Position numbers and translations under genes: made by a program. DNA of 60,000 nt from Chiloscyllium plagiosum (Eukaryota), in assembly GCF_004010195.1 (NCBI RefSeq), contig NC_057751.1, positions 9,747,457 through 9,807,456 of the forward strand. The letters run 5' to 3'. Positions within the stretch are counted from its first letter, which is position 1. The number at the start of each line of letters is the position of its first letter. Below, one piece after another: positions 5,956-47,751 of this stretch. The notes under the pieces were generated by a model, which was not told the DNA's origin, did no database searches, and saw only the letters and a program-made list of their open reading frames with translations.

Positions 5956-6279
5956 TTTTTTGTTGCGGAAGGATTTTGTTTCTTGTTAATATTATCTTAA
6001 GTAATTTAGTTTCGCGTTCGTAAAGCCTCTCAATTGTTACTGGTTATAACTGTCATTGTTTTAGTTTTGTCCAATGTTTTTGGTTTTGTTCATGAGGCAA
6101 CCAACTTTTACCCAATATCTTTATCTCCTGTTTAAGTTTTTTACCATCTTTTAAATCTACATTATGTACATATGTAGTTGTTTAAGCAGTTTGGTTCTGT
6201 TCATTCCTTGCACATTTAGAACGACCAAACATTGGGGTCTGACTTTATAGTTGGACCAAACCCAAAGTCATTTCTTTAT

Positions 6280-6406
6280 CAGAGCTGAAAATGTGTTGCT
6301 GGAAAAACACAGCAGGTCAGGCAGCATCCGCGCAGCAGGAGAATCGACGTTTCGGGCATGAGCCCTTCTTCAGGAATCAATCGACGTTTCGGCCATGAGC
6401 CCTTCT
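6280..6406 (-). mobile_element. Short Penelope terminal-repeat insertion with two tandem hammerhead-like cores
   Basis: Flanked by TCATTTCTTTAT at 6268-6279 and 6407-6418. Minus strand has CTGAAGA-AGGGCTCATGCCC-GAAACGTC (6346-6373) and a second, truncated core (6383-6410). Confidence 0.75.
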
Positions 6407-6489
6407 TCATTTCTTTATTAGGCAAGGTACTATTTACATATATTTGAAGCACCGGGGAGAGTCTGATAATTGAATAGGCTCCCATTGTA

Positions 6490-7105
6490 GAGCCATAGAG
6501 ATGTACAGAAAGGAAACAGACCCTTCGGTCCAGCTCGTCCATGCTGACAGAAATCCTCACCTAATCTCATTTGCCAACACTTGCCCCAAATCCCTCTCAA
6601 CCCTTCTTATTCATATACTCATCCAGATGCCTTTTAAATATTGTAATTGTACCAGCCTCCACCACTTCCTCTGGCAGCTCATTCCATGCATGGAAGACTT
6701 ACTATTTAGGTCCCTTTTAAGTCTTTTCACCTTAAACCTATGCCCTCTAATTCTGGACTCCCCTACCCTGCAGAAAAGACCTTGGTTGTTTGCCCTATTC
6801 ATGCCCCTCATGACTTTATAAAGTTTTAAGGTCACCTCTCAGCCTCCGACATTCCAGGGAAAATAACCCCAACCTATTTTGCCTCTCCCTATAGCATAAA
6901 CACTTCAACCCTGGCAACATCATTGGAACTCTTTTCTAAACCCTTCCAAATTTCGTAGCGTCCTTCCTAAAACAGGGAAACAAAAATTGAATGCAGCATT
7001 CCAAATCTGGTCTAACATATATCCTGTACAGCTGCAACATGACCTTCCCAGTCCTATACTCAATGCATTAACCAATAAAGGCAAGTGGACCAAATGCCTT
7101 CTTCT
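6490..7105 (-). mobile_element. CR1-type LINE 3' fragment
   Basis: Minus ORF ESRIRGHRFKV...WWRLVQLQ and the typical CR1 3' tail gtacatctctatg. Similar copies occur elsewhere in the window. Confidence 0.8.
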
Positions 7106-7984
7106 CTCTCCTATTGTGGGAGAAAAACACCAGTCTCAGAGTCAGAATCGGGATTCAATGACAAAGAAACTGGAGCTCCGGGGAGAGAGAGATGTCCGGC
7201 AGGACGGCTATCAATTGCAAGCCTTCTCTCCCCCTTGGAGCACATGTCACAATATTTTATACATCTCATGGGATAATGGTCCAGATATGGACTCTTTGTT
7301 TGTGCAACATAGTTTGTTTACAGAAAACATTACAGAATCATTGTCACTTTCAGAGGAAATTTACAGAGTCATTGTCAGTTTCAGCAGGTACGCATCATTG
7401 CTGCAGTAACTGGTCGTGATCGTTCTTCCTGAGACGGAAGATCGTTTCTCATTACTCCAGATCTAAGGTCTTGTACACAAGCAGTCTCAGGTAGTTAACC
7501 TTTCTATTGAAGGTGGTGGCTGGACTTCGGCGGGCAGTAGATATTACTGATGTGTATTCTCTCCTCCACCTGCTTTAAACTTATCTATGTTCTGTGTCTA
7601 TTGTGCTGGTATCCTGTTGGCCTCAGGCAGTACCAGTGTATACTTCGCTGTACTTTTCCATGTAATGGCTCAGTGGCCATCTTGTCTGCTAAGTGACCAA
7701 CTTATGGCTCAGCGGTCATCTTGTGTCTGTGTGCCCCGTGTTAGCATGCCCTGTCAACTCCTACTTCACTATCTACTTGTGACTCCACTTTCAAAAAACT
7801 GTGCATCTGCACACTTTTTTCACGTCTACTTCCCTTGTCTCATTTTCTCTTATGACAAAAAAGGGACATGTCAACACAGCGACAAAATTGACTGAGCAAC
7901 TGAGTAGAGTGGTGAATGGTTATTTGGACAGGAGGAAGATTCTTTTGTGAGGTTCTTTAGCACTTGGATCCATACTGTTCTTGA

Positions 7985-8287
7985 TTAGATTACCTACAGT
8001 GTGGAAACAGGCCATTTGGCCCAACAAGTCCACACCGACCCTCCAAAGAGCAACCCACCCAGACCCATTCCCCAACATTTACCCCTGACTAATGCACTTA
8101 AAACTACGGGCAATTTAGCATCGCCAATTCACCTAACCTGCACATCTTTGGACTGTGGGAGGAAACCTACGCAGACACAGAGAGAATGTGCAAACTTCAC
8201 ACAGATCGTCGCCTGAGGCTGGAATTGAACCTGGGACCCTGGTGCTGTGAGGCAACAGTGCTAACCACTGAGCCACCGTGCTGCCCC
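7985..8287 (-). mobile_element. HE1-type tRNA-derived SINE
   Basis: Reverse complement begins GGGCAGCACGGTGGCTCAGTGGTTAGCACTG, has B box GGTTCAATTCC and a CR1-like tail. Copies at 9580 and 55545. Confidence 0.85.
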
Positions 8288-9579
8288 TTGACATCTATAT
8301 TTCTAGACTGAGACATTGACACACATTACATGAAATTTGTGGATTAAACTAAACTTGGAAAATACTGCAAACAGCAAGGTGTTTAACTCCAATCGACATA
8401 CAGTTGTCCAATTGATTGAAAGAATGGGCAGACAAAAGGCAGATGAAATGTAATGGAGAGATGTGTGAAGTGATTTAATTTGCTGGAAGGAGAGACAACA
8501 CAAAATAAAGGGGACATTCTAAATATTCACAAATCAGAGATGCTGGCAGGGTCAGATAAGACAACAATTTCAAATGTCTGCAGGCTGTGGGGCCTTTATA
8601 ACGGGAGCACAGAAAACAAAAAGAAGGAAGATGTGACAAATCTGCATAAAACACTGGTTCAGCCTCAACTGAAATGTGGTATTCAGTTCTTGTCACCAGA
8701 TTGAACCATGTTTGTATTTTTGCAGCATGGATAAAGACCATTCAGCTAATCTCTTGCTGTGTGAAGGGGGCCCATGCAGTAAGTGGGCTCCGCTGACGCC
8801 TCAGCTCAACATATGGATATATGACCGGTATACGTACAGACCTGTATGTTCAAATGATAAATTCTGATCTCTGTATGCAAAGAAATGGAATGTTTATGTA
8901 TGTATGGCATGGCCAATTGTACAGCTCATCAAAATATTTTATGAGTAAAGTATATTTTTGAAATAAAAATAAAATTGCTGTGTGAAGGAGCTATTCACCT
9001 CTGCCAGACCCCAGTGACTTGCTGGAGTCCTGCACATTCTTCCTTTTCATTCCTTCTGGAATGCTTCATTTGAATCTCAGGCAACGCATTTCAAATCCAA
9101 ACCACTTACTGAGTAAAACTAAAAAGATTCTTCTATCATGAGTTGATTCTTTTGGCACAAAGGTAGAAATGACTGGAGAAACTCAACAGGTCTGATAGCA
9201 CCTGTGGAGAATAGCAGAGTGAATGTTTTGGGTCCAGAACAATTCAGAACAAGGGTCTGTTTCCTTGCTGTACATCTCTATGACATTACAATGGGAGCCT
9301 ATTCAATTATCAGACTCTCCCTGGTGCTTCAAATATATGTAAATAGTACCTTGCCTAATTAAGAAATGACTTTGGGTTTGTTCCCACTATAAAGTCAGAC
9401 CCCAATGTTTGTTTGTTCTAAATGTGCAAGGAATGAACAGAACCAAACTGCTTTAACAGGAAGTGTTTGGAGGGATATGGGACAAATGCTGGCAAATGGG
9501 ACTCGATTAATTTAGGATATCTGGTCAGAATGGATGAGTTGGAATTACAGGACTGTTTCTGTGTCGTACATCTCCATGT

Positions 9580-10262
9580 ACAGCACAGTGGCTCAGTGGT
9601 AAGCACTGCTGCGTCACAGTGCTAGGGATCCGGGTTTGATTCCAACCTTGGGCGACTATCTGTGTGAATAATTGCACATTCTCCTCGTCTCTGTGTGTGT
9701 TTCCTCTGGGTGCCCCCGTTTCTCCCCACAGTTGAAAGATGTGCAGCTTGGTTGGATTGGACATGCTAAATTGCCCATAGTGTTCAGGGATGTGTAGGTT
9801 ACGTGTATTTGGGTGCTGAGGATTTTCGATAGAAATGTGGAGGTCTAGGAAGTGGAGGGAGGAGTCTGAGACGGTCCAGGTAAATTTGAGGTTGGGGTGG
9901 AAGGGTTGGGGTGGAAGGTGTTAGTAAAGTGGATGAACTGTTCAACCTCCTCGTGGAAGCACGAGGTAGAGCCAATACAATCATCGATGTAGCGGAGGAA
10001 AAGGTGGGGGATGGTGCCCGTGTAGCTGCGGAAGATGGACTGTTCCACATATCCGACGAAGAGGCAGGCATAGCTGGGGCCCATGCGGATGCCCTCCTTT
10101 GGTTTGGAGGAAGTGGGAGGATTGGAAGGAGAAGTTGTTAAGAGTGAGGTCAGGGGTAAATATAGCGTAGAGAAATGCATCCAGATGGGTTACTGTTCAG
10201 GGGGTCGGTGTGGCTTTGTTGGGCTGAAGGGCCTGTTTCCACACTGTAGGGATTCTATTCTA
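9580..10262 (+). mobile_element. HE1-type SINE interrupted by a Penelope fragment
   Basis: cagcacagtggctcagtggtaagcactgctg...gggcctgtttccacactgtag, split at about 9815-10143. Confidence 0.8.
9815..10143 (-). mobile_element. Penelope-like element reverse transcriptase fragment
   Basis: Minus ORF GIRMGPSYACLFVGYVE...FLRYIDDCIG contains RT motifs B and C (YIDD) of PLE type. Confidence 0.8.
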
Positions 10263-11050: not shown

Positions 11051-11277
11051 CCAGTCCCACGTGGGGGTGGTTAGGGTTAGGGTTCATGCCCCAGGCTCCT
11101 GCTGATAAAAGATGCACTTCCTCAGAGGGCCACCGGACCCCACACCTTCACTCTGATTGCTCTCCGCAGGTGCTGCCAGAGCTTTCCCAGCAGGGTCTGT
11201 CCCTTTTCTCTCGGTCAAAAGCTTTCCCCGTCCCGCCTCCATCAGGACCCTTAGCAAGAATGCCCACGTTCACTCCT

Positions 11278-11535
11278 GATTTGGACGTGCCGGTGTTGGA
11301 CTGGAGTGTACAAAGTTAAAAATCACACAACACCAGGTTATAGACCAACAGGTTTAATTAGAAGCACACTAGCTTTCAGAGCGTCGCTCCTTCGTCAGGT
11401 GATAGTGGAGGGCTCAATCCTAAAACACAGAATTTATGGCAAAAATTTACAGTGTGATGTAACTGAAATTATACACTGAAAAATTGATTAAGCCTTTCAT
11501 CTGTTAGAATACCATGATAGTTTCACTTCTTTCAC
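11278..11535 (-). mobile_element. Penelope-like terminal repeat (second family) with intact minimal hammerhead motif
   Basis: Minus strand CAC-CTGACGA-A-GGAGC GAC GCTCT-GAAAG-CTA-GTG (core 11370-11398). Related copy at about 35940-36108. Confidence 0.7.
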
Positions 11536-11539
11536 TCCA

Positions 11540-13786: not shown

Positions 13787-14177
13787 GTGAGTAAAGATTC
13801 CCAGAAAAATAAATCTGAAATGCGTCTTCTTCTGGAAAGTTATTTGAATTGTCTGCGACTGGCTGGGATTTGGCCTCTTTGAATGTTGAGCTGGCTTCAT
13901 TTCTTCATTTCCTCATTTCCTTCTGTCAGACTCAAGCTAAGTGTTTTGTATTTCATGAACAGGGAGAAGCAGCTGTCCCTTCTGAATATGCACCTTTGTG
14001 CTCAGGAATGCCCTGAATCCTCTCACCACCCCTCCTCCGTGTATGGGAGGATCTGGAAGCTAATGGACCTCTTTCGTATTGGTGCCTTGTCAGTAAAACA
14101 AAGCAAACTCAGTTGGATCGAAGACACTTGTAGCCATTTAGCCCGTTGCACCCAGGATGGCTTTTTGAAGGAGCAGG

Positions 14178-14915
14178 GCGAAAGTGAGGGCTGCAGCTGC
14201 TGGAGATCAGAGTCTAGATTAGAGTGGTGCTGGAACATGTACAGCAGGTCAGGCAGCATCTGAGGAGCAGGAAAATCGACGTTTCCGTCAAAAGCCCTTC
14301 ATCAGGAATGAGGCAGGGAGCCTCCAGTGTGGAGAAATAAACGGGAGGGGGCTGGGGCTGGGGAGAAAGTAGCCAAGATTACAACAGGTAGATGGAGGTG
14401 GGGATGAAGGTGATATGGTGGAGCGGATAGGTGGAAAGGAAGACTGGCAGGTAGGACTGGTCATGAGCATGGTTCTGAGCTGGCAGGTCGGAACTGGGGT
14501 AAGGTATGGGGAGGGGGAATGAGGAAACTGGTGAAGTCCACATTGATGCCCTGGGGTTGAAGTGCTCCAAGGCAGAAGATGAGGCGTTCTTCCAGGTGTC
14601 GGGTGGTGAGGTAGAGGTGGCCCAGGACCTGCATATCCATGGCAGAGTGGGAGGGGAGGTTGAAATGTTTGGTCACAGTGGTGGGCTAATTGGTCCGGGT
14701 GTCCCGGAGATGTTTCCTAAATCTCCCTGCGAGAAGGCATCCAGTCTCCCCAATGTAGCATCGGAAGCAACGGATGCAATAAATGATATTGGTGGATGTA
14801 CAGGTAAAACTTTGGATGTGGAAGACTCCTTTGGGGCCTTGGATGTAGGTGAGGGAGGAGGTGTGGGTGCAGGTTTTACAATTCCTGCAGCGGGAGGGGA
14901 GGGTGGGTTGTTGCA
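14178..14915 (-). mobile_element. Penelope-like element 3' part (GIY-YIG endonuclease plus terminal repeat)
   Basis: Minus ORF FTCTSTNIIYCIRC..CYIGETGCLLAGRFRKH (GIY-YIG), followed by a terminal repeat with a degenerate hammerhead core at about 14278-14305. Confidence 0.8.
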
Positions 14916-15269
14916 CTTGGGCCGTGTTGACAACTTCATTCTGTCTGCAGATCCATGTTTATCATTCTCAACGACTTCTCTGGTCCATTTTAAAATTGTT
15001 CACCAAAGGAGATTCTTCCAGCTTGTAGTCATAACAGCGTTTTATGAAGAGTCATTTAGAATTGAAACGTTAGCTTTCTTTCTCTCCATGGATGCTGCCT
15101 GACCAGCTGTGATTACCAGCATTTTTTGTTTTCAATCCTAACAATGTTTGAAGCTTTTTCCTTATCTTTTCTCTCCCCCCCCCCCCCCCCCCCAATCCTT
15201 TGCCAAGTATTTTATGTTTGTGGCTGCTGCCCATTGAATAATTTTAAACAAGGTTACAGCCTCTATCTC

Positions 15270-16185
15270 TGAGAAAATGAAGACTGCAGATAAGAGTCAA
15301 AAAAAGTGATGCTGGAAAAGCACATCCGAGGAGCAGGACAATCAACATATCGAGCATAAGCTCTTCATCAGGAATGGGGAGGGGGGTGTGGTGGCTGGGG
15401 CTGAGGGGGTAGGGAGCTCGGAATGTGAAAGGTAGATGAAGGTGGGGATGATGGTGATAGGTCAGAGAGGAGGGTGGGCCAGATAGGTGGGAAGAAAGAT
15501 GGACAGGTAGAACGGTTCAAGAGGGCAGTGCCAAGTTGGAGGGTTGGATTAGGGATAAGGTGGGGAGGGGAGGAAACTGGTGAAATCGATCCCATGTGGT
15601 TGGAGGGTCCCAAGGCAGAAGATGAAGTGTTATTCCTCCAGTCGTCAGGAGGTTAGAGTTTGGCAGTGGAGCAGGTAACCCAAAATTCACAACCTGACTG
15701 ACCCGGTCGACCCATCGTCTCCGCCTGCTCCTACCCCACCAAACTTATCTCCGCATACCTTGACAGCATCATGTCCCCCTTGGTCGAGGCTCTTCCCATG
15801 TACATGCAGGACGCCACCACGCTTTCCGTCTTCTCCATAACTTTCAGTTATCCGGCCCCAACACTTCATCTTCACCATGGACATCCAGTCCCTGTACACA
15901 TCCGTCCACTATGACGAAGGCCTTCAAGCCATCCGTTTCTTCCCCTCCCACCGACCCAACCAGTACCCATCCACTGACACACTCATTCGATGGGCTGAAC
16001 TGGTCCTCATCGTCAACAATTTCTCTTTCAAATCCTTCTACTTCCTCAGACCCACCCGTCTCCCATCATCTCTCAGCTCCACTCCCCCACACACCTGATG
16101 AAGAACTTATATTGGAAATGTCGACTCTGCTGCTCCTCACATGCTGCCTGACCCTCTGTGCTTTTCCAGCACCTCACTTTTGACT
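15270..16185. mobile_element. Rearranged Penelope-like insertion (inverted termini around an RT fragment)
   Basis: Terminal repeat in opposite orientations at both ends. Plus-strand FTMDIQSLYT...ELVLIVNNFSF is PLE RT motif A. Confidence 0.75.
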
Positions 16186-19799: not shown

Positions 19800-21382
19800 G
19801 TGCTAAATGAATATTTTTCGTCCGTATTTACACAGGAAAAAGACAATTTTGTCAAGGAGAATATTGAGATACAGGCTATTAGACTAGACGGAATTGAGGT
19901 TCATAAGGAGGAGGTGTTAGCAATTCTGGAAAGTGTGAAAATAGATAAGCCCCCTGGGCCAGATGGGATTGATCCTGGGATTCTCTGGGAAGCTAGGGAG
20001 GAGATTGTAGAACCTTTGGCTTTGATCTTTATGTTGTCATTATCTACAGGAACAGTGCCAGAAGACTGCAGGATAGCAACCCTGGTAATTATAGACCAGT
20101 GAGCCTTACTCCAGTTGTGGGTAAAGTGTTGGAAAGGATTACAAGAGAGAGGATTTATAATCATCCAGAAGGGAATAATTTGATTAGGGATAGTTAACAC
20201 GGTTTTGTGAAGGATAGCTCGTGCCTCTCAAACCTTAATGAGTTCTTTGAGAAGGTGACCAAATAGGTGGTTGATGGTAAAGTGGTTGATGTGTTGGATA
20301 TGGATTTCAGTGAGGCGTTTGATAATGTTCCTCATGGTAGGCTATTGCACAAAATGCGGAGGAATGGGATTGAGGGTGATTTAATGGTTTGGATCAGAAA
20401 TTGGTTAGCTGAAAGAAGGCAAAGATTGTGGTGTTCTGCAAGGATCTGTTTTGGGTCCACTGCTGTTTGTCATTTTGAAAACAACCTGGATGAGGGTGTA
20501 AAAGGATGGGTTCGTAAATTGCAGCTGGCAGTCAGGTTGGTGGAATTGTGGACAGTGCCAAAGGAGGTTGCAGATTACAGAAGGGATATAGATAAGCTGC
20601 AGAACTGGGCTGAGAGGTGGCAAATGGAGTTTAATGCAGAAAAGTGTGAGGTGATTCACTTTGGAAGGAACAACGACAATACAGAGTACTGGGCTAATGT
20701 TAAGATTCTTGGTAGTGTGGATGAGCAGAGAACTCTTGGTGTCCACGTGCTTAGATCCCTGAAAGTTACTACCCAGATTGATAGGGTTCTTAAGAAGGCA
20801 TACGGTGTTAGCCTTTGTTGGTAAAGGGATTGAGTTTTGGAGCCATGAGGTCATGCCGCAGCTGTACAAAACTCTAGTGCAGCCGCACTTGGTGTATTGT
20901 TTACTCTTCTGGTCACCGCATACTAGGAAGGATGTGGAAGCTTTGGAAAGAGTGCAGAGGAGATTTACCAGGATGTTGGAATGGAGGGAAGGTCTTATGA
21001 GGCAAAGTTGAGGGACTTGAGGCTGTTTTCGATAGAGAGAAGAAGGTTGAGAGGTGATTTAATAGATGACCAGAGGATTAGATAGGGTGGACAGTGAGAG
21101 CCTCTTTCCTCGGATGGTGATGGCGAGCATGAGGGGACGCAGCTTTAAATTGGAGGGTGATAGAGGACAGATGTCAGAGATAGGTTCTTTCCTCAGAGTA
21201 ATAGTGGTGTGGAACACCCTGTCTGCAACAGTAGTAGACTGACCAACTTTAAGGGCATTTAAATAGCCATTGAATAGACATATGGATGATAATGGAATAG
21301 TGTAGGTTAGATGGGCTTCAGATTGGTTTCACACGTCGAGGGTCGAAGGGCCTGTACTGCGCTGTAATGTGATATGTTCTGA
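19800..21382 (+). mobile_element. CR1 LINE, 5'-truncated, degenerate ORF2 RT
   Basis: [60 protein letters not shown] with frameshifts and stops. Confidence 0.92.
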
Positions 21383-23161: not shown

Positions 23162-23419
<258 letters not shown>

Positions 23420-25515: not shown

Positions 25516-25604
25516 TGAGCTTCATTAGCAGAGATCTGAACTCACAACAAGTTTTTATGGAACTAACTGAGAGTTGTATCAGAAAATGACAACAATTGAT
25601 GAAC

Positions 25605-25824
25605 TTAAAAATGTGTTGCTGGAAAAGCGCAGCAGGTCAGGTGGCATCAAAGGAACAGGAGAATCGACGTTTCGGGCATAAGCCCTCCTCAAGGAATCCT
25701 GAAGAAGGGCTTATGCCCAAAACATCGATTCTCCTGTTCCTTTGATGCTGCCTGACCTGCTGCGCTTTTCCAGCAACACATTTTTAAGCTCTGATCTCCA
25801 GCATCTGCAGTCCTCACTTTCTCC
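25605..25824. mobile_element. Penelope-derived fold-back insertion
   Basis: Inverted arms of about 85 bp. TSD AACAATTGATGAAC at 25591-25604 and 25825-25838. Confidence 0.85.
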
Positions 25825-26046
25825 AACAATTGATGAACCATTGGAATGATGGTTACATGGTTAATTCCTTGCATGTGTTGAGGAATAGTGTGCTGCAGGG
25901 ATTGGAAATGCTAACTCGACTCATGGGTGGTCTCATAACTGGTTCTGATAAGAAAGCCTGAAGAGTGGGATGAATGTTGCTGCTGTGATTGAGAGTGCAG
26001 CCCTGATGATCTGAGTTTGTAACAGCTTTCTCTTGTGTCCCATCAG

Positions 26047-29080: not shown

Positions 29081-29622
29081 CACATTCTTTGCTTTCAAAA
29101 CATTCAGGCATCCTTGTGAATCCCCAGGTTTTAAAATGGTTCTTTGGCATTTTAGAAAAAACACAGAAAGACATCGTCTTTACCCAACATAGACACACTG
29201 TGATGATTCACCTCCTTCAGTGGTGCTGTAAAAAATTTGCCGTGCTTTGAAATTAATTTGATTAAAGTTTGCCTGCATTCCTGCTTCTGCTCACCATAGG
29301 TGGCATGTTTGTGTGGGCATGGATGAAGTCAGCTGTGATACATTGCTGCTTCAGCAGCCTACTTGCAATTCCTGATTTCAGATGACAAGTCACAGCTAAC
29401 CATGTGGCTGAGGAAACAAACTGTCCTTGGAACTGTCCCACTTGGAGCTTTCCCGATTGAAGGAATGTGTGTGTGACAGAAACAAACAGGAAAATCCAGG
29501 CAGTTTTTGAGCAGCTTGGCCCTTTCTTTGCTTTGTGCAATGGTGGATGTACTATTGTCATGCAATCCGTTGTTGAGAAGCGGCAACTGGCTGACTGGAA
29601 TTGATTTTTGACACATACACAG

Positions 29623-29817
29623 GACAACCTGGAAGGAGAGGAGGAGGAAGAGGAGGAGGAGCAGGAGCAATCCAGTGATGCAGAGGAACTGGAGAAAGAA
29701 CCCTCCACATCCAAAGGCAAAACACCGGTCAAGGGCCCAGCCCATAAGAAGCGACCATATGTGGAAATTGAATATGAACAGGAAACAGAACCAGCAGCCA
29801 AAGTGACGAGCTCGTGA
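29623..29817 (+). CDS. MAK16: MAK16 exon 10 (acidic tail and C-terminus)
   Basis: acacag|DNLEGEEEE...[34 protein letters not shown]. Conserved [12 protein letters not shown]. Total CDS 885 nt = 294 aa. Confidence 0.93.
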
Positions 29818-32670: not shown

Positions 32671-33301
32671 CTGAAACAGACAAGGAACCAGTTATGGGTC
32701 AGTCACACTGCCATTTGTCGTGCAGGTCCAAAATTGTACAGATGTCTAAAACCAAAACTAAGAACTTTTTGGCAGATCAGGCAGCATCCACAAAGACCTA
32801 AGGCATAACTCAGACTGATGACCTTCAGTCAGAACTGGTCCCATGTGTGATACTGGAATTATGTCCACTGGAATTATGTCTACTGAAATAGAAAAGTAAA
32901 CACTGCCACTCAGATTAAAGTACAGTTTAGAAGTTAATTGCTGAAGCAGGCCTTGAACTGACAGGTGAAGAGATGACCAGTCGTGGCTTGGTAATTCCAG
33001 TCAAAGGTGAAGGAAGCAATGTCAGCCTTCCCAAACTCATGGTCTAATGGAAATTGGATTAAGTGTGTACCAAGAACAGAACCATTAATATGGAGTGATA
33101 AAACATTTCAGTCTTTCCACAATCTGTGTGGTCACATACAGTTCATTAGCTGCACAACTAATCTATCACTCTTCCGTTTCTGTTCTGTACAAATAAACAG
33201 ACACTTGATAAGATTTGAAGGCTGGGTGCCTGTAACTACTGGCCCAGGGATTAAGGTGGCATGTTCAGATAAATGGAGATAAGGTGAGGATACACACTTA
33301 C

Positions 33302-34341: not shown

Positions 34342-34714
34342 CTGTAGAAATGTACACACAAATCAGTTAGTGGTATTCTGTTCAAAATTGGGAGCAAAAA
34401 AAAATTACAAGTTGTGTAGTGACTCGTCACATCCAGTTTTGAGAAAGCATGCTTACTGGAGGATAGGGACACAGACTGCATTTTTTCTTCCTGGAGCAGG
34501 AGATGGATGCTCAGTAAGTTCCAGCTGGAGCACCAGCACAGATACTCAACAAAGCTCAGCACAATCACACAGTGTAGAAGTCACCTGCAGTGGGATGAAT
34601 TGCCCATTCATTGACCTTTCCCCACCCCTCTGACAAACAAAGTGAATTACATGGTCCATCAAAGAGTAGAGACCATCTGGCGAAACAGGCAGCAGTGCCA
34701 ACAAACAGACTCAC

Positions 34715-35400
34715 TTGTTCATATGTGGTTTCATCAGGTGCAGCACAGCTCCCAGAGCTCCCCTGCCTTCCTCCTCTGCACCACACAGGAGTTCTATGAC
34801 AGTCTTGCACCCCACAGCGTGCACTGCAGCTGCCAACAGCTCGTCTGCAGCCAGCCGAGATGCTGCATTGGTCCACGGCTTCTCTTCGCAGTGTGTAGCA
34901 CAAAAAATAACCAGATGTGGCAAAATGGCTCTCAGAACAGAGTCTGGCAAAACTGTTGTGACGTGAGGCGTCATTTGCTCTGGCCTTGCCTGCAGTTTCC
35001 AGAGGAGAGCTTTCAAGGTTTGGGCCACGTTGCAGGCTCTCTCAGGTGTCAGGTTATATGCATCGTCAGGTAATTCGCCACTATCGGTCTCACATCTGGG
35101 CAATCCTGAGTACTCTATCAGGGCAGCTGTGAAATTGACATAGATTTGAACAATGTCTGACATGTCATTCTGGAAGCAGTCAAGAAGCCAGGCAGGGTCA
35201 GCCTGTAGAAACAATTCTCTTGCATCATCCAAAACTGATCCTTTGTGTCTTATCAGTTTCTCATTTGACAAGTCCCCTAAAATTTTCCTGAGAACATGCT
35301 CGACTGCTGGGACTTGTATTCTTTGATGAGAATCCTCTTCCACAGTCCTGCTTTTGCCTGCGAGGCGCAATTTCTGAATAATTTCTGAAGGATCTTCCAT
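34715..35400 (-). CDS. TTI2: TTI2 first coding exon
   Basis: accATG EDPSEIIQKL...HLMKPHMN AA|gtgagt, with acceptor ttcccag at 35450. Total CDS 1536 nt = 511 aa. Confidence 0.88.
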
Positions 35401-35937
35401 GGTACTTTTTTCTTTGGCTTGGTCCACTATCAGAAATTCATACTTTAATCTGGGAAAAAGAAGGCATTCTTTTTGACCAAAGGCAACATTAGTCATCCAA
35501 GAGCACATGTACCAGGCAAGAAATACCCAAGCAAACTGAGCTGCTAAACATTTCTGTTTGCAGATTATTACTCATTATCAATGACTGAGCGGGTTCTCAA
35601 TCTGCTTTGAGAATCTTCAAACAGAAACCACCTGATTTATTTTGCTATTGATTTTGCATAATTTTTAAAATTCGTTCACAAGCTAGCTCAGCCAGCACTT
35701 ATTGCCCAACCTCAATTACCAGAAGGCGGTTAAAAGTCAACCACACTGGAGCCATACCAGGTAATGATGCATGACAGTGACAGCAACCTAGATTTGTAAC
35801 TGAAACCCTCATGTAATAAAGTATGAGTGAGATGTTTTAAAATTTGAAGAACACGCTTATCAGAGTGCAGTAATCTGCGTATCTGATCCGATTCCTTTGC
35901 ATGACCATGTTCTGCGAAGGGATACCAAGAACATTAC

Positions 35938-36108
35938 ATTAACAATCACACAGCACCAGGTTATAGACCAACAGGTTTATTTGAAAGTACAAGCTTTCAG
36001 AGTGCTGCTCCCTCTTCAGGAGCTACCAGATAAACCTGTTGGGACGATAACCTGGCATTGTGTGACTTTTAACTTTGTCCATCCAGTCCAACACTGGCAC
36101 CTCCACAT
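35938..36108. mobile_element. Penelope-derived fold-back insertion (second family)
   Basis: Inverted arms caccaggttat..caacaggtttat / ataaacctgttg..ataacctgg. Flanks CAAGAACATTAC / CAAGATCATTAC. Confidence 0.65.
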
Positions 36109-36689
36109 CAAGATCATTACGCATGAGACCATCACAGTTCACCAATCCAATGGCCTGTCCTGGGGGTGCATCCCAAATTCAGTGATTTCCCAGAAGTTGC
36201 TTTTTTTTTACACAACCCCCGACTGATCCACCACCCTCCTCGAATAACAGGATCACCGCGGGAAGTTTTACTTCCCAGCCACCCCTCAGCTCACGTTCCA
36301 ATAAACACCTCTAGTTCGCCCACACAGTGGGCCGAAAACTAATTTTATTTGGGGTGGGAAGGGAACGAAGATGGAGAGTTGCTTGTGTGGGAAATGATCC
36401 ACTCAGGCAAAAATAAATGAAATGCAGGGAACGGAGTGGGGCAGCAGCCTCAGCCAGCAATCCGTGAGGAGGGGAAGGCTCTCTGTCTCTGTGGGATCAG
36501 TGCAGGGCTGTTGTACATTGGAGCAGTTTGGATGGTCCCGGTCCCAGCCCCAGCCCCAGCATTGTGGGGTGGGGGGGGGGGGGGGTGGTTGACGGTTAAA
36601 TCACATTCTCTACAATCAAATCCCTTTTCCTGTTGTCCATCTTCAACGAGGGTTGGAGAAAGCTCTGGTTTTTTTTTCACCAGCTCCTC

Positions 36690-38493: not shown

Positions 38494-38776
38494 TGGGATG
38501 TATCTGAGATTGCTGAACAAAAACTGTTAACAGAAATTTTCCAACCTTCTCTGAACACAGAAAAAGTTCCGGGGGAGTGGACGATTGTAATTGTGACACT
38601 ATTGGTTGAGAAAAGTGCAATGGATAACCTAAGAAACTGCACATCTGTCAACTTGGAAACTGCAGATCTGTCAACTTGACTTTAATCGTAATAAAATTGA
38701 TGGAGGCCATAATGCAGGATAAGATGAATACACACTGAGAGAAAAATAACATCATACCAGGCAATCAACTTGGTTT

Positions 38777-38941
38777 CTGGATTAGTGGTGCTGGAAGAGC
38801 ACAGCAGTTGATGATGAAGGGCTTTTGCCCGAAACGTCGATATCGCTGCTCCTTGGATGCTGCCTGAACTGATGTGCTCTTCCAGCACCACTAATCCAGA
38901 ATCTGGTTTCCAGCATCTGCAGTCATTGTTTTTACCTACCT
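38777..38941. mobile_element. Penelope-derived fold-back insertion
   Basis: TSD AATCAACTTGGTTT at 38763-38776 and 38942-38955, with a short inverted arm. Confidence 0.82.
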
Positions 38942-40479
38942 AATCAACTTGGTTTGTCAATGGCAAGTCATGTCTGACAAATTGAATTGAATTCTTTGAC
39001 AGGGTGACACAAGCACTGGCTGAGGATGCTGGTGTCAATGTTGCACATTTCAACTTTCAGAAAGCATTTGATGCTGTGCTCCATGGCAGGTTGGTTCGCA
39101 AATTTGGGATTGATGGGTCCTTGGCAGCATGGACTAGAAGTTGGCTAAATGCTAGGTATAGATGGGTATTTCTCAGACTGGTGTTCCCCAGGGGCCCTTG
39201 GTTTTTCTGATTTATATAAACAATTGGGATTTGGATGTTGAGGGCAAGATGTCTAAACTTGCAGATGATATAAGCGAGGGAGAACAATGGATTGTGAGGA
39301 TGATGCTGAGTGATTTCAGAGGGACATTGACAAGTTGGCCAAATAGGCAGAACACCTGACAGATTCATTTTTAAGACAGAGAAATAAGCGGTAGTGCATT
39401 TTGGCAGAAACATGGAGACAAAGTACAGATTCAATGGTACAAAATGGTATAAGGAGAGTACAGAGCAGAGGAACGTCAAGGTTCAAGTGCATAATTCTCT
39501 GAAGGTGGCTAGGCAAGTTAAAGCAGTTGTTAAGAAGGCTGAGAAGACCCTGAGGTTGAAACATAGAGGCACAGAGAAAAAAGCAAGGAAGAGTATAAAA
39601 GCAATGAGATAATGCTGCACCTTCATAAGTCATTGGTCAAACCACATTAGGAGTTTTATGTTAAGTTCTTGGCTAATTATTTAGGGAAGGACATTAAAAC
39701 TTTGAAGAGAGTACAAAGGAAATTTACTGGAATTATACCAGGAACGTAGGATTTCAGATACAAGGGAAGATTAGAGAAATTGGGCTTCTTCTCTTTGGAG
39801 CAGGGAAGATTAAGAGGTGACTTTATTGAGGTGTTCAAAATTATGAACATTTTTGAAAGGGTAAGGAAGGATATTCTGTTTCACTGTGTCAAAAAGTAAG
39901 AGTCATAATTTCAAGATTGTCAGCAAGAAAGCTATGACCCAAATGAGAAGGTACTTCTTTACTCACAGAGTTGTTAGGGTTTGGAATGTGCAGCCTGGCA
40001 GAACGATGGAGGTGATTTCCACAGAAGCTATTAAAAGAGAGCTGGATATACATTTAAAACTGTCAAATTAGAGGATTACAGAGAGAAGTCTGGAGAATCT
40101 GACTAGCTAATACAGGCATGATGCTTTGAATGGACATCTCCTGTCATGTAAAACTCTATATCCTCTTGCCCCTCCATTGATGATGAAAGGCTTAAATGTC
40201 GCAGTGTTGTCAAACTGTGAATGAGATAGTGCACCAATTTCTAATAATTGCAGTGATTTAAAAAATTGATTCAAGGAGTTTACAGGCTGTTGTGTCCCAC
40301 GGCAAACCCAATCTCTGATGCTGTTTTGCCATTGAGGACAGTGCAAGATTGTGATGTTTTTGCAGACAAGTCAAATTCCCAACATGATCTTGTTTGTTCC
40401 CAGATGAAAACAAACATAGACAAATGGCCACAGGAGGGCGCAGAATGCTGCAGTACAGAGGGATCTGTTTATCTCTGAA

Positions 40480-41450
40480 TCTGAATAATAGAAAGTTAAC
40501 ATCAACACACTGTCCAGCAAGTAATTAGACAAGCAAATAGATTGTTGGCCTTTATTGTTATGGAATCAAATCTAAAAGTAGTAAGTTTTGCAACTCCTAC
40601 AGGGCTTTGGTGACTACATACATGGAGTACTGTGTAGTTTTCATTTCCTTACTCAACACCGAAAAGCGATGTTAATCACTTGACTCTGACGCAGTCAAGG
40701 GTAGGTTGGGCTTGAATTTTGGTTATCTGCTTCAGAGATGGGTACTCTACCACTGCACCACAAAAACACCCTTAAGTGGAGCTTGACTTGCTTTGCAAGA
40801 ATTTCAGAGGCTGATTCCTGGGATGGAAGGATTATCTTATGTGGAACCGTCAAACAGGTTGAAAATGTGTTGCTGGAAAAGCGCAGCAGGTCAGGCAGCA
40901 TCCAAGGAACAGGAGAATCGACGTTTCGGGCATAAGCCCTTCTTCCTGAAGAAGGGCTTATGCCCGAAACGTCGATTCTCCTGTTCCTTGGATGCTGCCT
41001 GACCTGCTGCACTTTTCCAGCAACACATTTTCAGCTCTGATCTCCAGCATCTGCAGTCCTCACTTTCTCCTGTCAAACAGGTTGTCTGGTACTCATTGAC
41101 ATTGTGAAAAATAAGAGGTGATCTTGTTGAAACAGAAAAATTTTGGGAATGAGTAGATGTTGCGAGGATATTTCCTCTTGTGGCAGAATCACAAACGAGC
41201 AGACAGAATTTAAAATAAAGGGTCCAAAAGGTGAAGTAAAGTGAATTTTACTCTCCTAGCTGTTGTTAATCATTGGAATTCTCTTTTACAGAGAGCAGTG
41301 AAGGCTGGACCATTGGAAATATTCAAGACTGTAGGTGGGGGGGAGGGAATTGGAGTTGACAGCACAATCAGCAAAACCATCAGTTTATTGAATGGTGAAA
41401 CAGGCTTGAGGGACCAAATGCCTACTCCTGCTCCTATTTCTCATGTTCTT
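40480..41450 (+). mobile_element. Old CR1 3' fragment
   Basis: RLIPGMEGLSY and VVNHWNSL remnants, interrupted at about 40690-40790 and 40862-41070. Confidence 0.6.
40862..41070. mobile_element. Penelope-derived fold-back insertion with intact hammerhead core
   Basis: Near-perfect inverted arms of about 85 bp. TSD GTCAAACAGGTTG at 40849-40861 and 41072-41084. Core CTGAAGA-A-GGGC TTAT GCCC-GAAACGTC at 40946-40973. Confidence 0.88.
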
Positions 41451-43060: not shown

Positions 43061-45890
43061 CTGCCTGCAAATGAAACTGCTGAAATCTCTTGCCGTCAAC
43101 TTGTCAATCTGTCAGGAAGTCTATAATTATCACAGCCCAGCTGATGAAATACTTGGAAATGTAATAAGCAGGGATTATTCACCAAGCTCACTCAGACAGC
43201 ACTCAACACGTTGTAACCAGGGACAGAAAAGTGCTCCTTCTCAAACAAATCCTGAAACATGGCCTCTATCAAATTATTCTGACGGAGGCAGATTTTAAAG
43301 CCCGTAAGAGAAAAGGTCAGTCCCGTAATTGATTAATCAAACAAAGTGGATTTGATTTGTTCACTCAGTATGATATTTGCTCACCTGCAAACCTGGCAGC
43401 TGACTGTTCATTCAATGAAAGATAAAGGGTTTCATATTTCCTCTTATTTATGGGAAGTGTGCGTCAGTAAACTGTAATCAGTAAACTCCAGTCCCTCAGC
43501 TTGGGGATACCAGCTCTGACAGGAATTGATAAAAAAAAAGACTGTCTTATTCATCGTGCAATACAAAATACTCAGCATCTAAGCACCATTAACTCTCTGC
43601 AAATATGAAATATGCAGTCTTCTGAGGCAGGTTTCATTTTGGCATCTGCCTGGTTCAGTTTGACCATCAGTTGGGATCATAACTATGCCATCCATCTCAA
43701 TCTTATCCTGTCAGTTAATCTATGACCCTTTGGGTTATCGGATTCCAGTTGATTCCCTGAGTATCTGAACTTCTTAATTTGTGACATATGAATTTGTAAC
43801 ATTTGAAGCTCCTCATGAACCTCTGATCACAGGAAATAGAAGCTGGGTATGTCACTGACCTACCCTGCTGTGCCATTCAGTAAGATCACGCCTGATCTGA
43901 TTTGGCTTCAACTCCATTTTCCTTGTGAGCCCCCTCCATAATCCTTGACTTCCATTCAGATCAAGAATGTGTATGCAGAATGTATATACTCAGCTTCCAC
44001 TGTTCTCTTTGGAAGAGATTGCCAAAGGCTCACAACTCTTTTGGAGAAGAAATTCCAACTCATCCCGATCTTAAGTCAGGGACCCCATATTTTTAAACTG
44101 CCTGCTCACATCACAACTCACTGTAATAGTGTGCTTCAAATTAAGCCTAATGATTCCTGGAATCATTGCAAAGTTCAAGCTTTTTTAAAAATCCACAAGC
44201 AACTTGATTATCAGATTGATAGAACACACAGTCCTGACTTCCATAACAAGAAATCACTGTTTATTACAGGTCATTAGATTCTTGCCCACAAGTAAACAAT
44301 TATAAACCATTGACATACAATACAACAAATTAAATCCCTGAAGTCCATTATAAACACACCAGATAGACAGATGTAAACAGGGGAAAAAAAACACGTGTGG
44401 GCGCAAGGAAAACTGGGAAAATAATTCCATAGTAATAGAGTCAAGAAAACAGATCCTTGCCGACTTGTCCATGCCGACCAGATAGCCTCACCTAATCTTG
44501 TCCCACTTGCCAACACCCAGCCCATATCCCTCCAAACCCATCCTATTCATATCCCCATCCACGTGCCTGATAACTATTGAATTGTACCAGCCTCCACCAC
44601 TTCCTCTGGCAGCTCATTTCATACACTCTCTGTGCACCACTCTCTGCATGCAAAGGTTGTCCCTTTTAAATCTTTCTCCTCTCAACTTAAACCTATGCCC
44701 TCTAGTTTTGGACTCCTCTATCCTGAGGAAACTACCTTGACTATTCAAATCTTAATTCATAAGATCTGTTGGGTTGGACCTTGTTGATGAGAAGGTTTCT
44801 CCTTGACCTTTCTTTTCCTGAATACTTCCACTGGCTTGCAAGAGGCACAATGTGACTGGTTCACTTGTAAAAGGTCACGGATTTATCCAATTCAAAGCCA
44901 CAGCTTGCATTAATTGCTGAGAGAAGAAGCAGGTTTGCTTCAGGTTTCAAGTGGTCAACTGAAGAGAACTGAGAGAGAGTTTTTTGGCTGCTGCAGTTCT
45001 GCTGGTTTTCTTATGGTCTGAAAAAAAAACACTTTGTGTCTTGTTTACTGCCCATATTGTTCAGCTGACTGCCAACCAATTGCAAGATGCTTAGAGGCAG
45101 AGGACCTTTGATAACTGGTCCCAAGTCCACAAATCAATCATCCTTCACCCCAGGACCGAGCCTAATAAACCTTGTCAGAACTGTTTGCAATGCACGTATG
45201 TCTCTCCTGAAGTAATGTGAATGAAGCAGTACACAGTGTACTCAGTACAGTTTCACCAATGTCCAGCACGGGTTGTAGCAGCTTTCGTGTTGCATCTCCC
45301 TTGTGATTAAAAACAATGCTCCATTTGTATTCCTAATTCTGCTTTCCCATTCTCCCTGCAAAAGTGCACAAAATCAAAATTTCCACATTTTCTCCATCTG
45401 CCAATTTTTTGTCCACTCTACTTACTCATGACCCTTTGTAGTTTTGCTTGTCCTCCTCACAAGCTTTCCTATCTTTCTTTCTGTCATGACAAAATTATTC
45501 ATCCAAGTCATTGCAAGTAGTTGAAACCACAGGACTGATTTCTGCATGTACTCCATTGGTCACATGCAAACATATTCATCTATGGCCTGCAGCATTATTC
45601 CAGTGAAGCCCAACACTAGTTGGAGGAACAGCACCTCAATTTCTGTTGCAATATCTTTATGACCTTTGTGCCTCAACATTAAGCCGAGGTCCCTCATTCA
45701 TTTTGCCATTCTGATAAATCGATTCTGCACCTTCTCCCAGGTCTGGGCACCCTTCTTAAAGTGCACTGCCCAGATTTGGACATATTGGATGGAATCTTCT
45801 AGTGATGAGGTTGGAGGCAGGAAGAGCACTAAATTACGCAGGGTTTGGCATAGCTCAACCCCACCAACCTTTTGTCAAGTCAGAATATGG

Positions 45891-46359
45891 TGTTATGGAC
45901 CAGGCCAGACCCCCTTAAAACATTTCAAGAAAGTAGCTCAGACCCTAACTTTGCTGGTTGTTTTAAGCAGATGTAGACTTGATATTCCAGGAGGGATGCA
46001 GCCGGCCCAACCACTTAGTTTTAAACAAACCGGGAATTTATTTGCAAGATTACCGAATGAAACACAAACAAAAGAGAACAGAATGCAGAATAACTTAACC
46101 GATCTGAAAACCCAACCAACTCTATCCCAACTTGATGATGCTGTTTCAAATTCCTGCATAAACACCCCTTGGCAAAAAAGGTTCTAACAGGAGAGATGTC
46201 AGAAAGAGGGAAGATCAGTATGGACCTGCTTCTTTGGATCCAGCAGCTTCACAACTCTGCTTGCTCCAAACCAGACATCTCGGCAACTTTGCCTCGTACA
46301 ACACTTTTGAAAAAAAACGAAGGACAACACAATCTTGTTCATGGAGCAGCCTCGTCACA
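45891..46359 (-). mobile_element. Solo LTR (Gypsy-like), internally deleted
   Basis: TG...CA with a perfect ATGG 4-bp TSD. Homologous to 24627-25247. Confidence 0.85.
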
Positions 46360-46518
46360 ATGGTGACTTTACCTTGTTAACTCAAAGTAGTCTATTTATT
46401 GGAACATCAGAAAAGGAGTTGGCCAGTCAGTCAGTCAAACTTGCCCGCCTATTCAATATTGTTATTGTTTAGCAAACACTTCAATACTTTTTATTCATCC
46501 CATCCTCATAACCCTGTA

Positions 46519-46715
46519 GGAGAAAGTGAGGACTGCAGATGCTGAAATCAGAGTCGAGAGTGTGGTGCTGGAAAAGCACAGCAGGTCAGGCAGCATCTGA
46601 GGAGCAGGAGAATCAACATTTCAGTCCTGATGAAGGGCTTATGCCCGAAACGTCAGTTCTCCTGCTCCTCGGATGCTGCCTGACCTGCTGTGCTTTTCCA
46701 GCACCACACTCTTGG
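46519..46715. mobile_element. Penelope-derived fold-back insertion with intact hammerhead core
   Basis: TSD CTCATAACCCTGTA at 46505-46518 and 46716-46729. Core CTGATGA-A-GGGC TTAT GCCC-GAAACGTC at 46627-46654. Confidence 0.88.
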
Positions 46716-47751
46716 CTCATAACCCTGTATGCCACTTTGTGTCATGGTCTTATGGTCTAATCAGGAATCATTTGATGTCTACTTAAAAAGTGCTCAAAGG
46801 TTGAGCTCCTGTTGCCATCTTGGGTAAAGAATTTCAGCCTGACCACACTCTGAGTAAAATTATTTCTCCTCATCTTGGAATTAAGACCTTATTTTGACAT
46901 GCTCTCATTCTAGACTTCAATTCTCCTGCGAGACAAATCAGAGGGAAATGAGATTGCACAGACACGGTGCCCTGGGGTCTGTTCTTTCTGCAGCTCCAAA
47001 GACATTTGTTCACCCCTGCAATTTGAAGCAGCTATTTGTGACTGAATGAAACAGTATAAAACATGTCAGCAACGCCATGCAGTGAATGCGCCGACAAGCT
47101 GTTCGTGAAAGGAAGTGGAGTCGAATTTTAATCAAATGTTGTCTTTGTGAGCCGGTCCTTTGTTTGACATCATTAATTCCAGCGATTTTAATCTGGCTTG
47201 TTCTTAATTGTTTGGCCATGGGAAGGGGAACAGGTGCAGAATATGCCCTTATCATTGGTTACCTTTGTGGAAATTCTAATATTTATTGCACTGGGCTCTG
47301 TTCCGCTTCTTTGCAAACAACATCACATTGTGTCTCCTGCAGCCACATTGATCTCACAATTGAACTGACCTCAGCTCAGCCTCAGCGCTTCACACAAATG
47401 GCAACTCATGGATGTACTTGGCATCTTCTGGTCAGCACTTACTCCCGTGTCTCTCCTGCTGAGTATTTTTAATCCCATGCCAGGGGAACCGCTGTGCACT
47501 GTCACACACGAAGTCATTGCACACAGACTTGGCAAGCTCAATTCCTGACAGCAAAAGCAATAGAATGGTGTAAACTCTGGATGAGTAACATGGGAACAAA
47601 GATCTTGGGCGCAGTAAGAAGCCATTTGGCACTTCTTCCTGGCTCCAGCATTCAATCAGATTATGGCCGATTCGGTTGTGGTATCAAATCAACTTTATGA
47701 TTCCTTTGTGTATCAAAAATGTATTTAGTTCTGCTTTTAATCAGCCAATCC

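What the first reader, a model, noticed from the sequence alone, without database searches (positions are those of the whole stretch)
6268..46729. Family of ~130-220 bp Penelope-derived insertions, mostly fold-back, with 12-14 bp TSDs and junctions at a hammerhead core
Seen: six short insertions at 6280-6406, 25605-25824, 35938-36108, 38777-38941, 40862-41070 and 46519-46715, each with a 12-14 bp target duplication. Five are inverted-repeat hairpins; the 6.3 kb one has tandem cores. Three have the same fixed end (CTGCAGTCCTCACTTTCTCC) abutting the TSD. In the fold-backs the arm-to-arm junction falls within about 10 nt of the CTGANGA of a hammerhead core. Established: PLE termini can be inverted and carry hammerheads. 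Inference: a stereotyped non-autonomous unit, or a twin-priming/template-switch product whose breakpoint is set by the ribozyme fold. Such a unit would seed long dsRNA hairpins across the genome.
Basis: partly seen in the sequence, partly recalled or inferred. Interest (0 to 1): 0.72.

Follow-up and report, generated by a model that had tools for sequence, protein, structure and literature searches.

The report
Fold-back stubs of Penelope-like retroelements
These short hairpin-shaped insertions are real, but they are cut-down end pieces of Penelope-like jumping genes in the already described "inverted copy plus tail" layout; the one detail worth testing is that copying usually stops at the front edge of the element's small ribozyme, not at its cut site.

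Summary
The six insertions and their 12-14 bp TSDs are real. A paralogous empty site in the window carries the 6.3-kb TSD only once. They are not one unit: they come from at least four subfamilies of Penelope-like elements (PLE, Neptune-type), and all five fold-back junctions differ. The layout (5'-truncated repeat, head-to-head inverted copy, 35-42 nt tail on one arm, TSD) is the published PLE insertion structure. Two longer fold-backs in the window join hundreds of bases upstream of the hammerhead. The clustering is real but one-sided. The longer arm stops at -6 to +1 of CUGANGA in 6 of 6; the shorter arm stops anywhere from -2 to +58; none starts at the cleavage site (+27/28). Contigs from three DNA runs show a genome-wide pile of ends at -4/-5 followed by unrelated sequence. 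Best reading: both target nicks prime cDNA at the two known start sites, and one cDNA runs off an RNA 5' end (or stalls) at helix I. I did not find the -4 boundary in print. This scan has already reported the same thing many times on other DNA of this genome.

The parts
6268..6279 (.). Left TSD (12 bp) of the 6.3-kb insert; right copy at 6407-6418
   Evidence: the paralogous empty site at about 9296-9437 holds it once
6280..6378 (-). Subfamily A single arm, tail-less; begins at -5/-4 of the hammerhead core (C3 at 6373)
6379..6406 (-). Second, tandem 28-nt core fragment (about +4 to +31), a probable template jump
25605..25698 (-). Subfamily A inverted arm without tail, reaching -4/-5; overlaps the other arm by TC (25697-25698)
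25697..25824 (+). Subfamily A sense arm from -2, with a 37-nt tail (25788-25824); TSD at 25591-25604 and 25825-25838
35938..36020 (-). Family D inverted arm (the longer arm), reaching -1 to -6 of its core (C3 at 36019); TSD at 35926-35937 and 36109-36120
36021..36108 (+). Family D sense arm (the shorter arm; starts at about +25 to +37) with a 36-nt tail
38777..38809 (-). Subfamily C short inverted arm (33 nt, reaching about +56-58); TSD at 38763-38776 and 38942-38955
38812..38941 (+). Subfamily C sense arm from +1 of the core, with a 42-nt tail
40862..40945 (-). Subfamily A inverted arm reaching +2; shares TTC (40943-40945) with the sense arm
40943..41071 (+). Subfamily A sense arm from -3 (C3 at 40946), with a 39-40 nt tail; TSD at 40849-40861 and 41072-41084
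46519..46624 (-). Subfamily B tail-bearing arm (the shorter arm; reaches only +18 to +20); tail 35-38 nt; TSD at 46505-46518 and 46716-46729
46623..46715 (+). Subfamily B tail-less arm (the longer arm), starting at -2 to -4 (C3 at 46627)
14177..14958 (-). Longer Neptune-type copy: CX2CXXC linker, GIY-YIG endonuclease, 3' UTR, hammerhead (C3 at 14305) and tail. It is the reference for the natural upstream sequence.
   Evidence: reads laid on 14144-14863
15269..16184 (.). Old long fold-back of subfamily B: tail arm 15269 to about 15680 (endonuclease C-terminus), inverted arm from about 15685 to 16184 (RT fragment, internal deletion, hammerhead); decayed 14-bp TSD with 2 mismatches; junction about 300 nt upstream of the core
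   Evidence: (score 8; random pairs reached at most 6)
11279..11530 (-). Family D copy with tail; probably continues about 130 nt upstream of its core (not verified)
49445..50596 (.). Long head-to-head fold-back of a different PLE (endonuclease C-terminus on both arms, apparent extra tail on the left arm only); no convincing TSD

Best explanation
These are dead-on-arrival, 5'-short insertions made by the RT-endonuclease of several Neptune-type PLE subfamilies. (1) The enzyme cuts both target strands 12-14 nt apart, which gives the TSD. (2) Each 3'-OH primes a cDNA, one at the end of the tail and one 35-42 nt further in. These are the two start sites shown in vitro for the anole PLE. (3) The two cDNAs grow toward the RNA's 5' end and are joined head to head, with 0-3 nt of microhomology. 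(4) At least one cDNA often ends at -4/-5, the 5' edge of hammerhead helix I, most likely because the template RNA begins there (a transcript start inside the terminal repeat); an RT stall at the folded ribozyme is the alternative. The other cDNA stops at a variable point. Shown here: TSDs, geometry, tail asymmetry, the boundary, and that it is not the cleavage site. Taken from the literature: two-strand cutting and extension, and the two start sites. Inferred: double priming in these events and the cause of the -4 boundary.
For: Both outer junctions read as cDNA extended from a TSD 3' end. All 5 short fold-backs and 15269-16184 carry a tail on exactly one arm (35-42 nt in the short ones). PMC11167929 reports cleavage and extension of both strands and two RT starts that bracket the tail. 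In 46519, 35938 and 15269-16184 the tail arm is the shorter one, so the other arm cannot be a snap-back copy of it. The longer arm ends at -6 to +1 in 6 of 9 events whose 5' end I could place; 3 further degraded copies could not be placed. Taking 6 of 10 in a post hoc 10-nt window, the binomial chance is 4e-4 even if ends could fall only within 130 nt. In one search, loose ends pile at 14309 (-4; 494, 497 and 456 contigs in three DNA runs) and at 14310 (434 and 443 in two runs), comparable to the tail end at 14180 (621, 628, 427). Agreement at 14309 is 0.30, against 0.298 for random window 30-mers; the consensus is AT-rich and the median length 222-255, as expected for unrelated flanks. Four of the 7 opposite-strand joints shown have one side at 14307-14310. 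Position -4 is the A of a YYANWYY initiator-like motif in two subfamilies (motif recalled).
Against: Only one window was available; no genome is held. Related subfamilies also diverge upstream of -4, so part of the pile and much of the 14-fold fall in RNA depth may be divergence rather than truncation. In the RNA run the loose consensus at 14309 looks like another subfamily's 3' UTR (agreement 0.43), and the 14310 consensus is G-rich. The RNA run listed no place where many molecules begin (table 6; a poly(A) single-cell library, poorly suited to this). The initiator-like motif occurs at 20 of 730 positions of that strand, so it is weak. The first loose letter after -4 is mostly A, so there is no general sign of a copied cap G. 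In vitro the anole PLE showed no strand preference for either start site, which does not by itself predict exactly one tail per event. 40862 and 38777 fit snap-back equally well. One search showed only 15 of 160 joint rows and 24 of 2253 loose-end rows.
Confidence: 0.72

Rival explanations
1. Same double priming, but the boundary comes from RT stalling or disengaging at the folded hammerhead (helix I, or the dimer) on a longer RNA.
For: -4 is exactly the 5' end of helix I, AUUC pairing with GAUU. The boundary recurs in family D, which has a different sequence. Longer copies show that RT can pass the site.
Against: RT has already displaced the 3' strand of helix I and unwound helix II before it reaches -4, so a stall would be expected at the 3' side of the fold, near +30 (inference). 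The monomer helix I has 3 pairs plus a U-U mismatch, and the predicted monomer fold of the core is weak (-8.2 kcal/mol).
Confidence: 0.12
2. Snap-back (self-priming): one cDNA, or an antisense template as proposed for rotifer PLEs, folds back at a natural micro-palindrome (TTCC-TGAA, GGAA-TTCC) next to the core and copies itself.
For: The centres of 40862 (CTTCTTC-AG-GAAGAAG) and 25605 are near-perfect palindromes. PMC3846280 proposes self-priming from palindromes at inverted junctions.
Against: In 46519, 35938 and 15269-16184 the tail-less arm holds sequence that is absent from the tail arm, while the tail arm holds the tail that is absent from the other, so neither arm can template the other. 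The loops would be only 1-2 nt. Single-arm copies end at the same place (6280; loose ends).
Confidence: 0.08
3. A stereotyped non-autonomous (MITE- or SINE-like) hairpin element amplified from a palindromic master copy.
For: Similar sizes and a fixed 3' end. Some joints recur in 5-9 contigs per run.
Against: 5 of 5 junctions differ, even between 25605 and 40862, which are 92% identical. At least 4 subfamilies are involved. The recurring joints include 14235, next to the reference copy's private mismatches at 14236-14240, so they may be clipping artefacts. A hairpin RNA would be a poor template. Long fold-backs have the same layout.
Confidence: 0.05
4. Hammerhead self-cleavage creates the template's 5' end and so sets the junction.
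For: A conserved minimal hammerhead with a palindromic ACGU or AGCU helix III is present.
Against: Cleavage would be after +27/28, but the clustered arms retain the whole core back to -4. No arm of subfamilies A-C starts at +28; only the tail arm of 35938 starts near it, ambiguously. HHR mutants did not change insertion in vitro, and no RNA ends were found at the cut site (PMC11167929).
Confidence: 0.03

Closest known systems
Insertion units of endonuclease-positive Penelope-like elements: pLTR + adjacent inverted 5'-truncated copy + 30-40 bp tail + TSD (Arkhipova et al. 2013, PMC3846280; Craig et al. 2021, PMC8557442; Schostak et al. 2008, PMC2377424)
   Same: Head-to-head inverted copy, tail on one end only, TSD, palindrome or short overlap at the inverted junction, partial tandems (6280).
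   Different: Here most units consist of the terminal 90-135 nt only, TSDs are 12-14 bp against 8-10 bp in the rotifer examples, and the 5' ends pile at one position.
Poseidon_Ac (PAc) in vitro TPRT (Frangieh et al. 2024, PMC11167929)
   Same: Two RT start sites that bracket the tail; both target strands cut and extended; HHR cleavage not needed.
   Different: PAc is of the Penelope/Poseidon clade and its ORF starts in stem II. No ORF start is conserved here (frames differ among subfamilies, read). The text I read does not deal with inverted junctions or a 5' boundary.
Minimal hammerheads (min-HHR) of metazoan PLEs (Cervera and de la Pena 2014, PMC4209133)
   Same: CUGANGA, an unpaired base plus helix II, GAAA with a palindromic helix III, and a short helix I. 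Solo motifs from truncated PLEs and pairs 100-700 bp apart on opposite strands were reported there.
   Different: That paper does not map insertion boundaries relative to the motif in the parts I read. Activity was not tested here.
L1 twin priming / 5' inversion
   Same: Both target nicks prime, giving an inverted 5' segment, a TSD and microhomology at the junction.
   Different: In L1 the two segments come from different parts of the RNA. Here both arms copy the same 90-100 nt.
Animal non-LTR retrozymes (bioRxiv 10.64898/2026.07.22.740005)
   Same: Non-coding, hammerhead-bearing sequences related to PLE pLTRs.
   Different: Retrozymes are tandem head-to-tail arrays. These are dispersed, mostly head-to-head, and TSD-bounded.

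Membership tests
EN+ Penelope-like element | GIY-YIG endonuclease with two cysteines between GIY and YIG, C-terminal to the RT, in the parent element | tested here: met
   14692-14958(-) reads NIIYCIRCFRC-YIGETG directly upstream of the same end. It is 75% identical to P0001, which has RT followed by GIY-YIG (Pfam scores weak, below cut-off). An RT piece in the 15.8-kb arm is 77% identical to P0001.
EN+ Penelope-like element | Inverted 5'-truncated copy and a 30-40 bp tail at one end | tested here: met
   5 of 5 short fold-backs, tails 35-42 nt
EN+ Penelope-like element | TSD created by the insertion | tested here: met
   6 of 6 above the 600-pair null; the paralogous empty site has one copy for 6280. 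Orthologous sites were not available.
EN+ Penelope-like element | Minimal hammerhead motif in the terminal repeat | tested here: met
   The motif scan finds cores with 0-1 mismatches in all six inserts; helices. Rfam has no match. Cleavage was not tested.
Neptune clade | CX2-5CXXC zinc-finger-like linker upstream of GIY-YIG (PMC8557442) | tested here: met
   CRNCKTC in the 14.7-kb copy and CHRRNCKTC in P0001. This applies to the copy related to subfamilies A-C. It was not shown for family D, and the motif is shared with Nematis.
Neptune clade | Placement in an RT phylogeny | not tested
   Only fragments are present and no reference set was at hand
Non-autonomous MITE/SINE-like family from one master | Identical internal junction and both termini shared across loci | tested here: not met
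   5 of 5 junctions differ; at least 4 subfamilies; joints diverse
Non-LTR retrozyme | Tandem head-to-tail monomers delimited by HHR cleavage sites | tested here: not met
   Only one 28-nt tandem piece (6379-6406); boundaries are not at the cleavage site
Non-LTR retrozyme | Circular RNA and self-cleavage | not testable with these tools
   No suitable RNA data

The most novel reading that the evidence does not exclude
Neptune-type PLEs make an RNA that begins exactly at helix I of the hammerhead. One (dimeric) RNP primes both target ends on that single RNA, at the tail end and about 37 nt further in. The first cDNA runs off the 5' end and the second stalls while displacing it. This would explain in one rule why each fold-back has exactly one tail, why one arm always ends at -4 and why the other varies. 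It would make the roughly 135-nt terminal repeat a self-contained, SINE-like template inside autonomous PLEs.
Probability: 0.3. Interest if true: 0.6.

Novelty: new member of a known kind. Interest (0 to 1): 0.3.

Why it matters
The structure itself is described, and this scan has recorded it many times in this genome, so it is not a new element class. It matters modestly because how PLEs build their tandem and inverted ends is still stated as unresolved (PMC8557442, PMC11167929). A genome with very many short copies gives a large sample of junctions. Tail-on-one-arm asymmetry, the cases with a shorter tail arm, and the -4 boundary are simple countable features that separate double priming from self-priming, and a transcript start from a ribozyme stall. 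An in vitro system exists to test them. Intronic hairpins of 30-90 bp could be ADAR or Dicer substrates, but nothing here shows that.

Tried and rejected
No whole genome is held, so no genome-wide table could be made. Rfam finds no hammerhead family at the gathering threshold or by E-value; the hairpins give only sub-threshold miRNA matches. Pattern scans: 0 hits in viral contigs, and 17 metagenome plus 9 prokaryote hits that match only the 20-24-mer and are chance. The look-up of earlier findings by sequence found nothing. No RNA holder was listed as on record. A-to-I editing: A>G plus T>C made up 110 of 420 places in the RNA run against 75 of 339, 72 of 321 and 78 of 354 in the DNA runs, p about 0.2-0.26; inconclusive. 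Cofolding two cores did not give the hammerhead dimer; minimum-energy folding is not a fair test of it. An ORF starting inside the repeat (MLPDLL...) was considered and dropped because the frame is not kept among subfamilies (read). No convincing TSD was found for 14177, 11274 or the 49.4-50.6 kb structure. Depths summed over contigs were not used as copy numbers. Literature: searches listed no paper whose title or abstract start points to a 5' boundary at helix I or to shark PLE fold-backs. The library lacks most subscription papers (Arkhipova 2006; Evgen'ev and Arkhipova 2005), Repbase and Dfam. Figure S2 of PMC11167929 (genomic coverage plot) could bear on this but could not be seen; its text supplements had no hits.
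Full report
Observation. All six inserts are present at the stated coordinates. Their target duplications are 12-14 bp. Scored as length minus three times mismatches they reach 9-15, while 0 of 600 random site pairs from the window scored above 6. The flank of the 6280 insert has an inverted paralogue at about 9296-9437, 93-95% identical. It lacks the insert and holds the 12-mer once, so this TSD was made by the insertion. Five inserts are inverted repeats, with arm identities of 81/88, 83/84, 61/66 and 32/33 for four of them. Each of the six holds a minimal hammerhead core with 0-1 mismatches; Rfam does not detect it.

Not one family. The alignment, BLAST and profile searches split the six into subfamily A (6280, 25605, 40862), B (46519, with the older 15271 and 16094 arms), C (38777) and family D (35938, with 11279). 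D does not align with the others. A related copy at 14177-14958 continues upstream of the hammerhead into a 3' UTR and a GIY-YIG endonuclease with a CX2CXXC linker. It is 75% identical to a database protein that has RT followed by GIY-YIG and is named from a bamboo shark by its source. The linker marks the Neptune and Nematis clades (PMC8557442, passages). The host is a vertebrate locus: a TTI2 exon lies at 34711-35571 and U13 snoRNA at 5854-5955. 'Shark' is inferred from that protein hit only.

Anatomy, counted from C3 of CUGANGA. In 25605 the inverted arm reaches -4/-5 and the tail arm -2, with a TC overlap. In 40862 the tail arm reaches -3 and the inverted arm +2, with a TTC overlap. In 46519 the tail-less arm reaches -2 to -4 and the tail arm only +18 to +20. 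In 38777 the tail arm reaches +1 and the inverted arm +56-58. In 35938 the inverted arm reaches -1 to -6 and the tail arm starts at about +25 to +37; the natural upstream sequence of this family is not certain. In 6280 a tail-less arm starts at -5/-4 and is preceded by a 28-nt tandem piece. So only the longer arm clusters. Every short fold-back has a 35-42 nt extension on one arm only. Two long structures have the same layout with junctions hundreds of bases upstream: 15269-16184 (decayed 14-bp TSD, score 8) and about 49445-50596 (no convincing TSD). Of nine events whose 5' end I could place, six stop at -6 to +1 and three run on (14177, 15269/16184, probably 11279). Three degraded copies (15046-15134, 32756-32827, 9173-9232) could not be placed. 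For 6 of 10 in a post hoc 10-nt window, the binomial chance is 4e-4 even if ends could fall only within 130 nt.

Beyond the window. No genome is held, so I laid three DNA contig sets and one RNA read set (4 of the 24 runs listed) on 14144-14863 at 80% likeness. They gave 51,368, 64,888 and 54,888 contigs and 2,898 reads, so the family is very abundant, although these are not copy numbers. Among the six loose-end rows shown per run (24 of 2253 rows in all), two kinds of place have heterogeneous continuations. One is the tail end at 14180 (621, 628 and 427 contigs). The other is 14309, which is -4 (494, 497, 456), together with 14310, which is -5 (434 and 443 in two runs). Agreement at 14309 is 0.30, equal to the 0.298 baseline for random window sequence, the consensus is AT-rich and the median length 222-255 nt. 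That is what unrelated flanks look like, and it implies many single-arm or short-second-arm copies with the same 5' boundary. Of the 15 joint rows shown (145 more were not), 7 change strand. Four of these have one side at 14307-14310, one joins 14312 to 14588, and two have a side at 14285 or 14297. Each occurs in at most 9 contigs per run. RNA depth falls 14-fold across 14311/14312. There are caveats. Related subfamilies also diverge upstream of -4: the 14310 consensus is G-rich, and in the RNA run the 14309 consensus resembles another 3' UTR (agreement 0.43). Contig counts favour junctions with unique flanks. Apparent recurrent joints lie beside the reference copy's private mismatches.

Mechanism. 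Read on each strand, both arms are cDNA extended from the 3' end of a TSD copy, one from the tail end and one 35-42 nt further in. Frangieh et al. 2024 (PMC11167929; abstract and parts 1-2 of 4 read; text supplements searched without hits) show that a PLE protein cuts and extends both target strands and starts RT at two sites that bracket the tail, and that hammerhead cleavage is not needed. Double priming with head-to-head joining therefore accounts for the geometry. Snap-back, or self-priming on an antisense template as proposed in PMC3846280 (passages and Discussion read), fits the palindromic centres of 40862 and 25605. It cannot make 46519, 35938 or 15269-16184, where each arm holds sequence that the other lacks. 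The clustered boundary is not the cleavage site, which lies after +27. It is the 5' end of helix I (AUUC with GAUU) and also the A of a YYANWYY initiator-like motif in two subfamilies. That motif is recalled, and it occurs at 20 of 730 positions on that strand, so it is weak evidence. I favour run-off at an RNA 5' end over a stall, because RT has already opened the fold from its 3' side when it reaches -4; this is inference. The RNA run listed no pile of molecule starts, but it is a poly(A) single-cell library. The dsRNA consequence is untested: hairpins fold in silico (-63 to -168 kcal/mol), but the excess of A>G plus T>C places in RNA (26% against 22%) is not significant.

Comparison with what is known. 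The inverted 5'-truncated copy, the 30-40 bp tail at one end, partial tandems and TSDs are described for PLEs in PMC8557442 (passages), PMC3846280, PMC2377424 (passages) and PMC8969392 (passages and supplement passages). Solo minimal hammerheads, and pairs 100-700 bp apart on opposite strands, are in PMC4209133 (parts 1-2 of 4). Retrozymes derived from pLTRs are tandem arrays (bioRxiv 10.64898/2026.07.22.740005, passages) and do not match. In these texts and in the listings of eight searches I did not find a 5' boundary at helix I; subscription papers, Repbase and Dfam were out of reach. Earlier notes of this scan report the same elements, the same boundary and a similar reading on other pieces of this genome. 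They are not independent support, and I saw them after reaching my reading.

Verdict. It is a new member of a known kind, with one testable detail: the one-sided boundary at -4 combined with one tail per fold-back. Interest 0.3.

Noticed in passing
window 14180 loose ends; 25810-25824, 41056-41071: Contigs continue the tail end as TCCTAG on the element's sense strand, so the tail reads CTCAC-TTTCTCCT-AG, like a branch point, pyrimidine tract and 3' splice site. PLEs carry 5' introns, so the outer RT start may sit at an intron acceptor.
   Followed up: no
window 6179-6525 vs 9251-9458: A local inverted duplication of about 210 bp (93-95% identical) about 3 kb apart; one copy later received the 6280 insert. 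Both copies lie next to other repeat fragments.
   Followed up: partly
window 15269-16184: Old long fold-back whose tail-less arm joins an RT fragment directly to the 3' UTR, a large internal deletion or template jump.
   Followed up: partly
window 49445-50596: Long head-to-head fold-back of a different PLE type (endonuclease C-terminus on both arms; decayed hammerhead near 50525-50556); the region 50099-50289 forms a 66-bp inverted repeat at its centre.
   Followed up: partly
window 15046-15134, 32756-32827, 9173-9232: Three degraded short pieces of further hammerhead-bearing PLE end families; 15046-15134 may have a decayed 13-bp TSD, which would place its start at the core as well.
   Followed up: no
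window 5854-5955 (+): U13 snoRNA (Rfam RF01210, 65 bits).
   Followed up: no
window 34711-35571 (-); 29605-29817 (+); 817-1634 (-): A TTI2 coding exon (PDB match, E 3.5e-8). An acidic reading frame that resembles the MAK16 C-terminus and a possible FUT10 exon are labels recalled from vertebrate gene order and were not tested. The 35938 hairpin lies about 370 nt 5' of the TTI2 frame.
   Followed up: partly
window 9845-10189 (-); 20267-20824 (+); 52799-53212 (-): A Neptune-like RT fragment (YIDD) with no terminal repeat found beside it, and two LINE RT fragments (Pfam RVT_1, E 7e-10 and 0.09).
   Followed up: no
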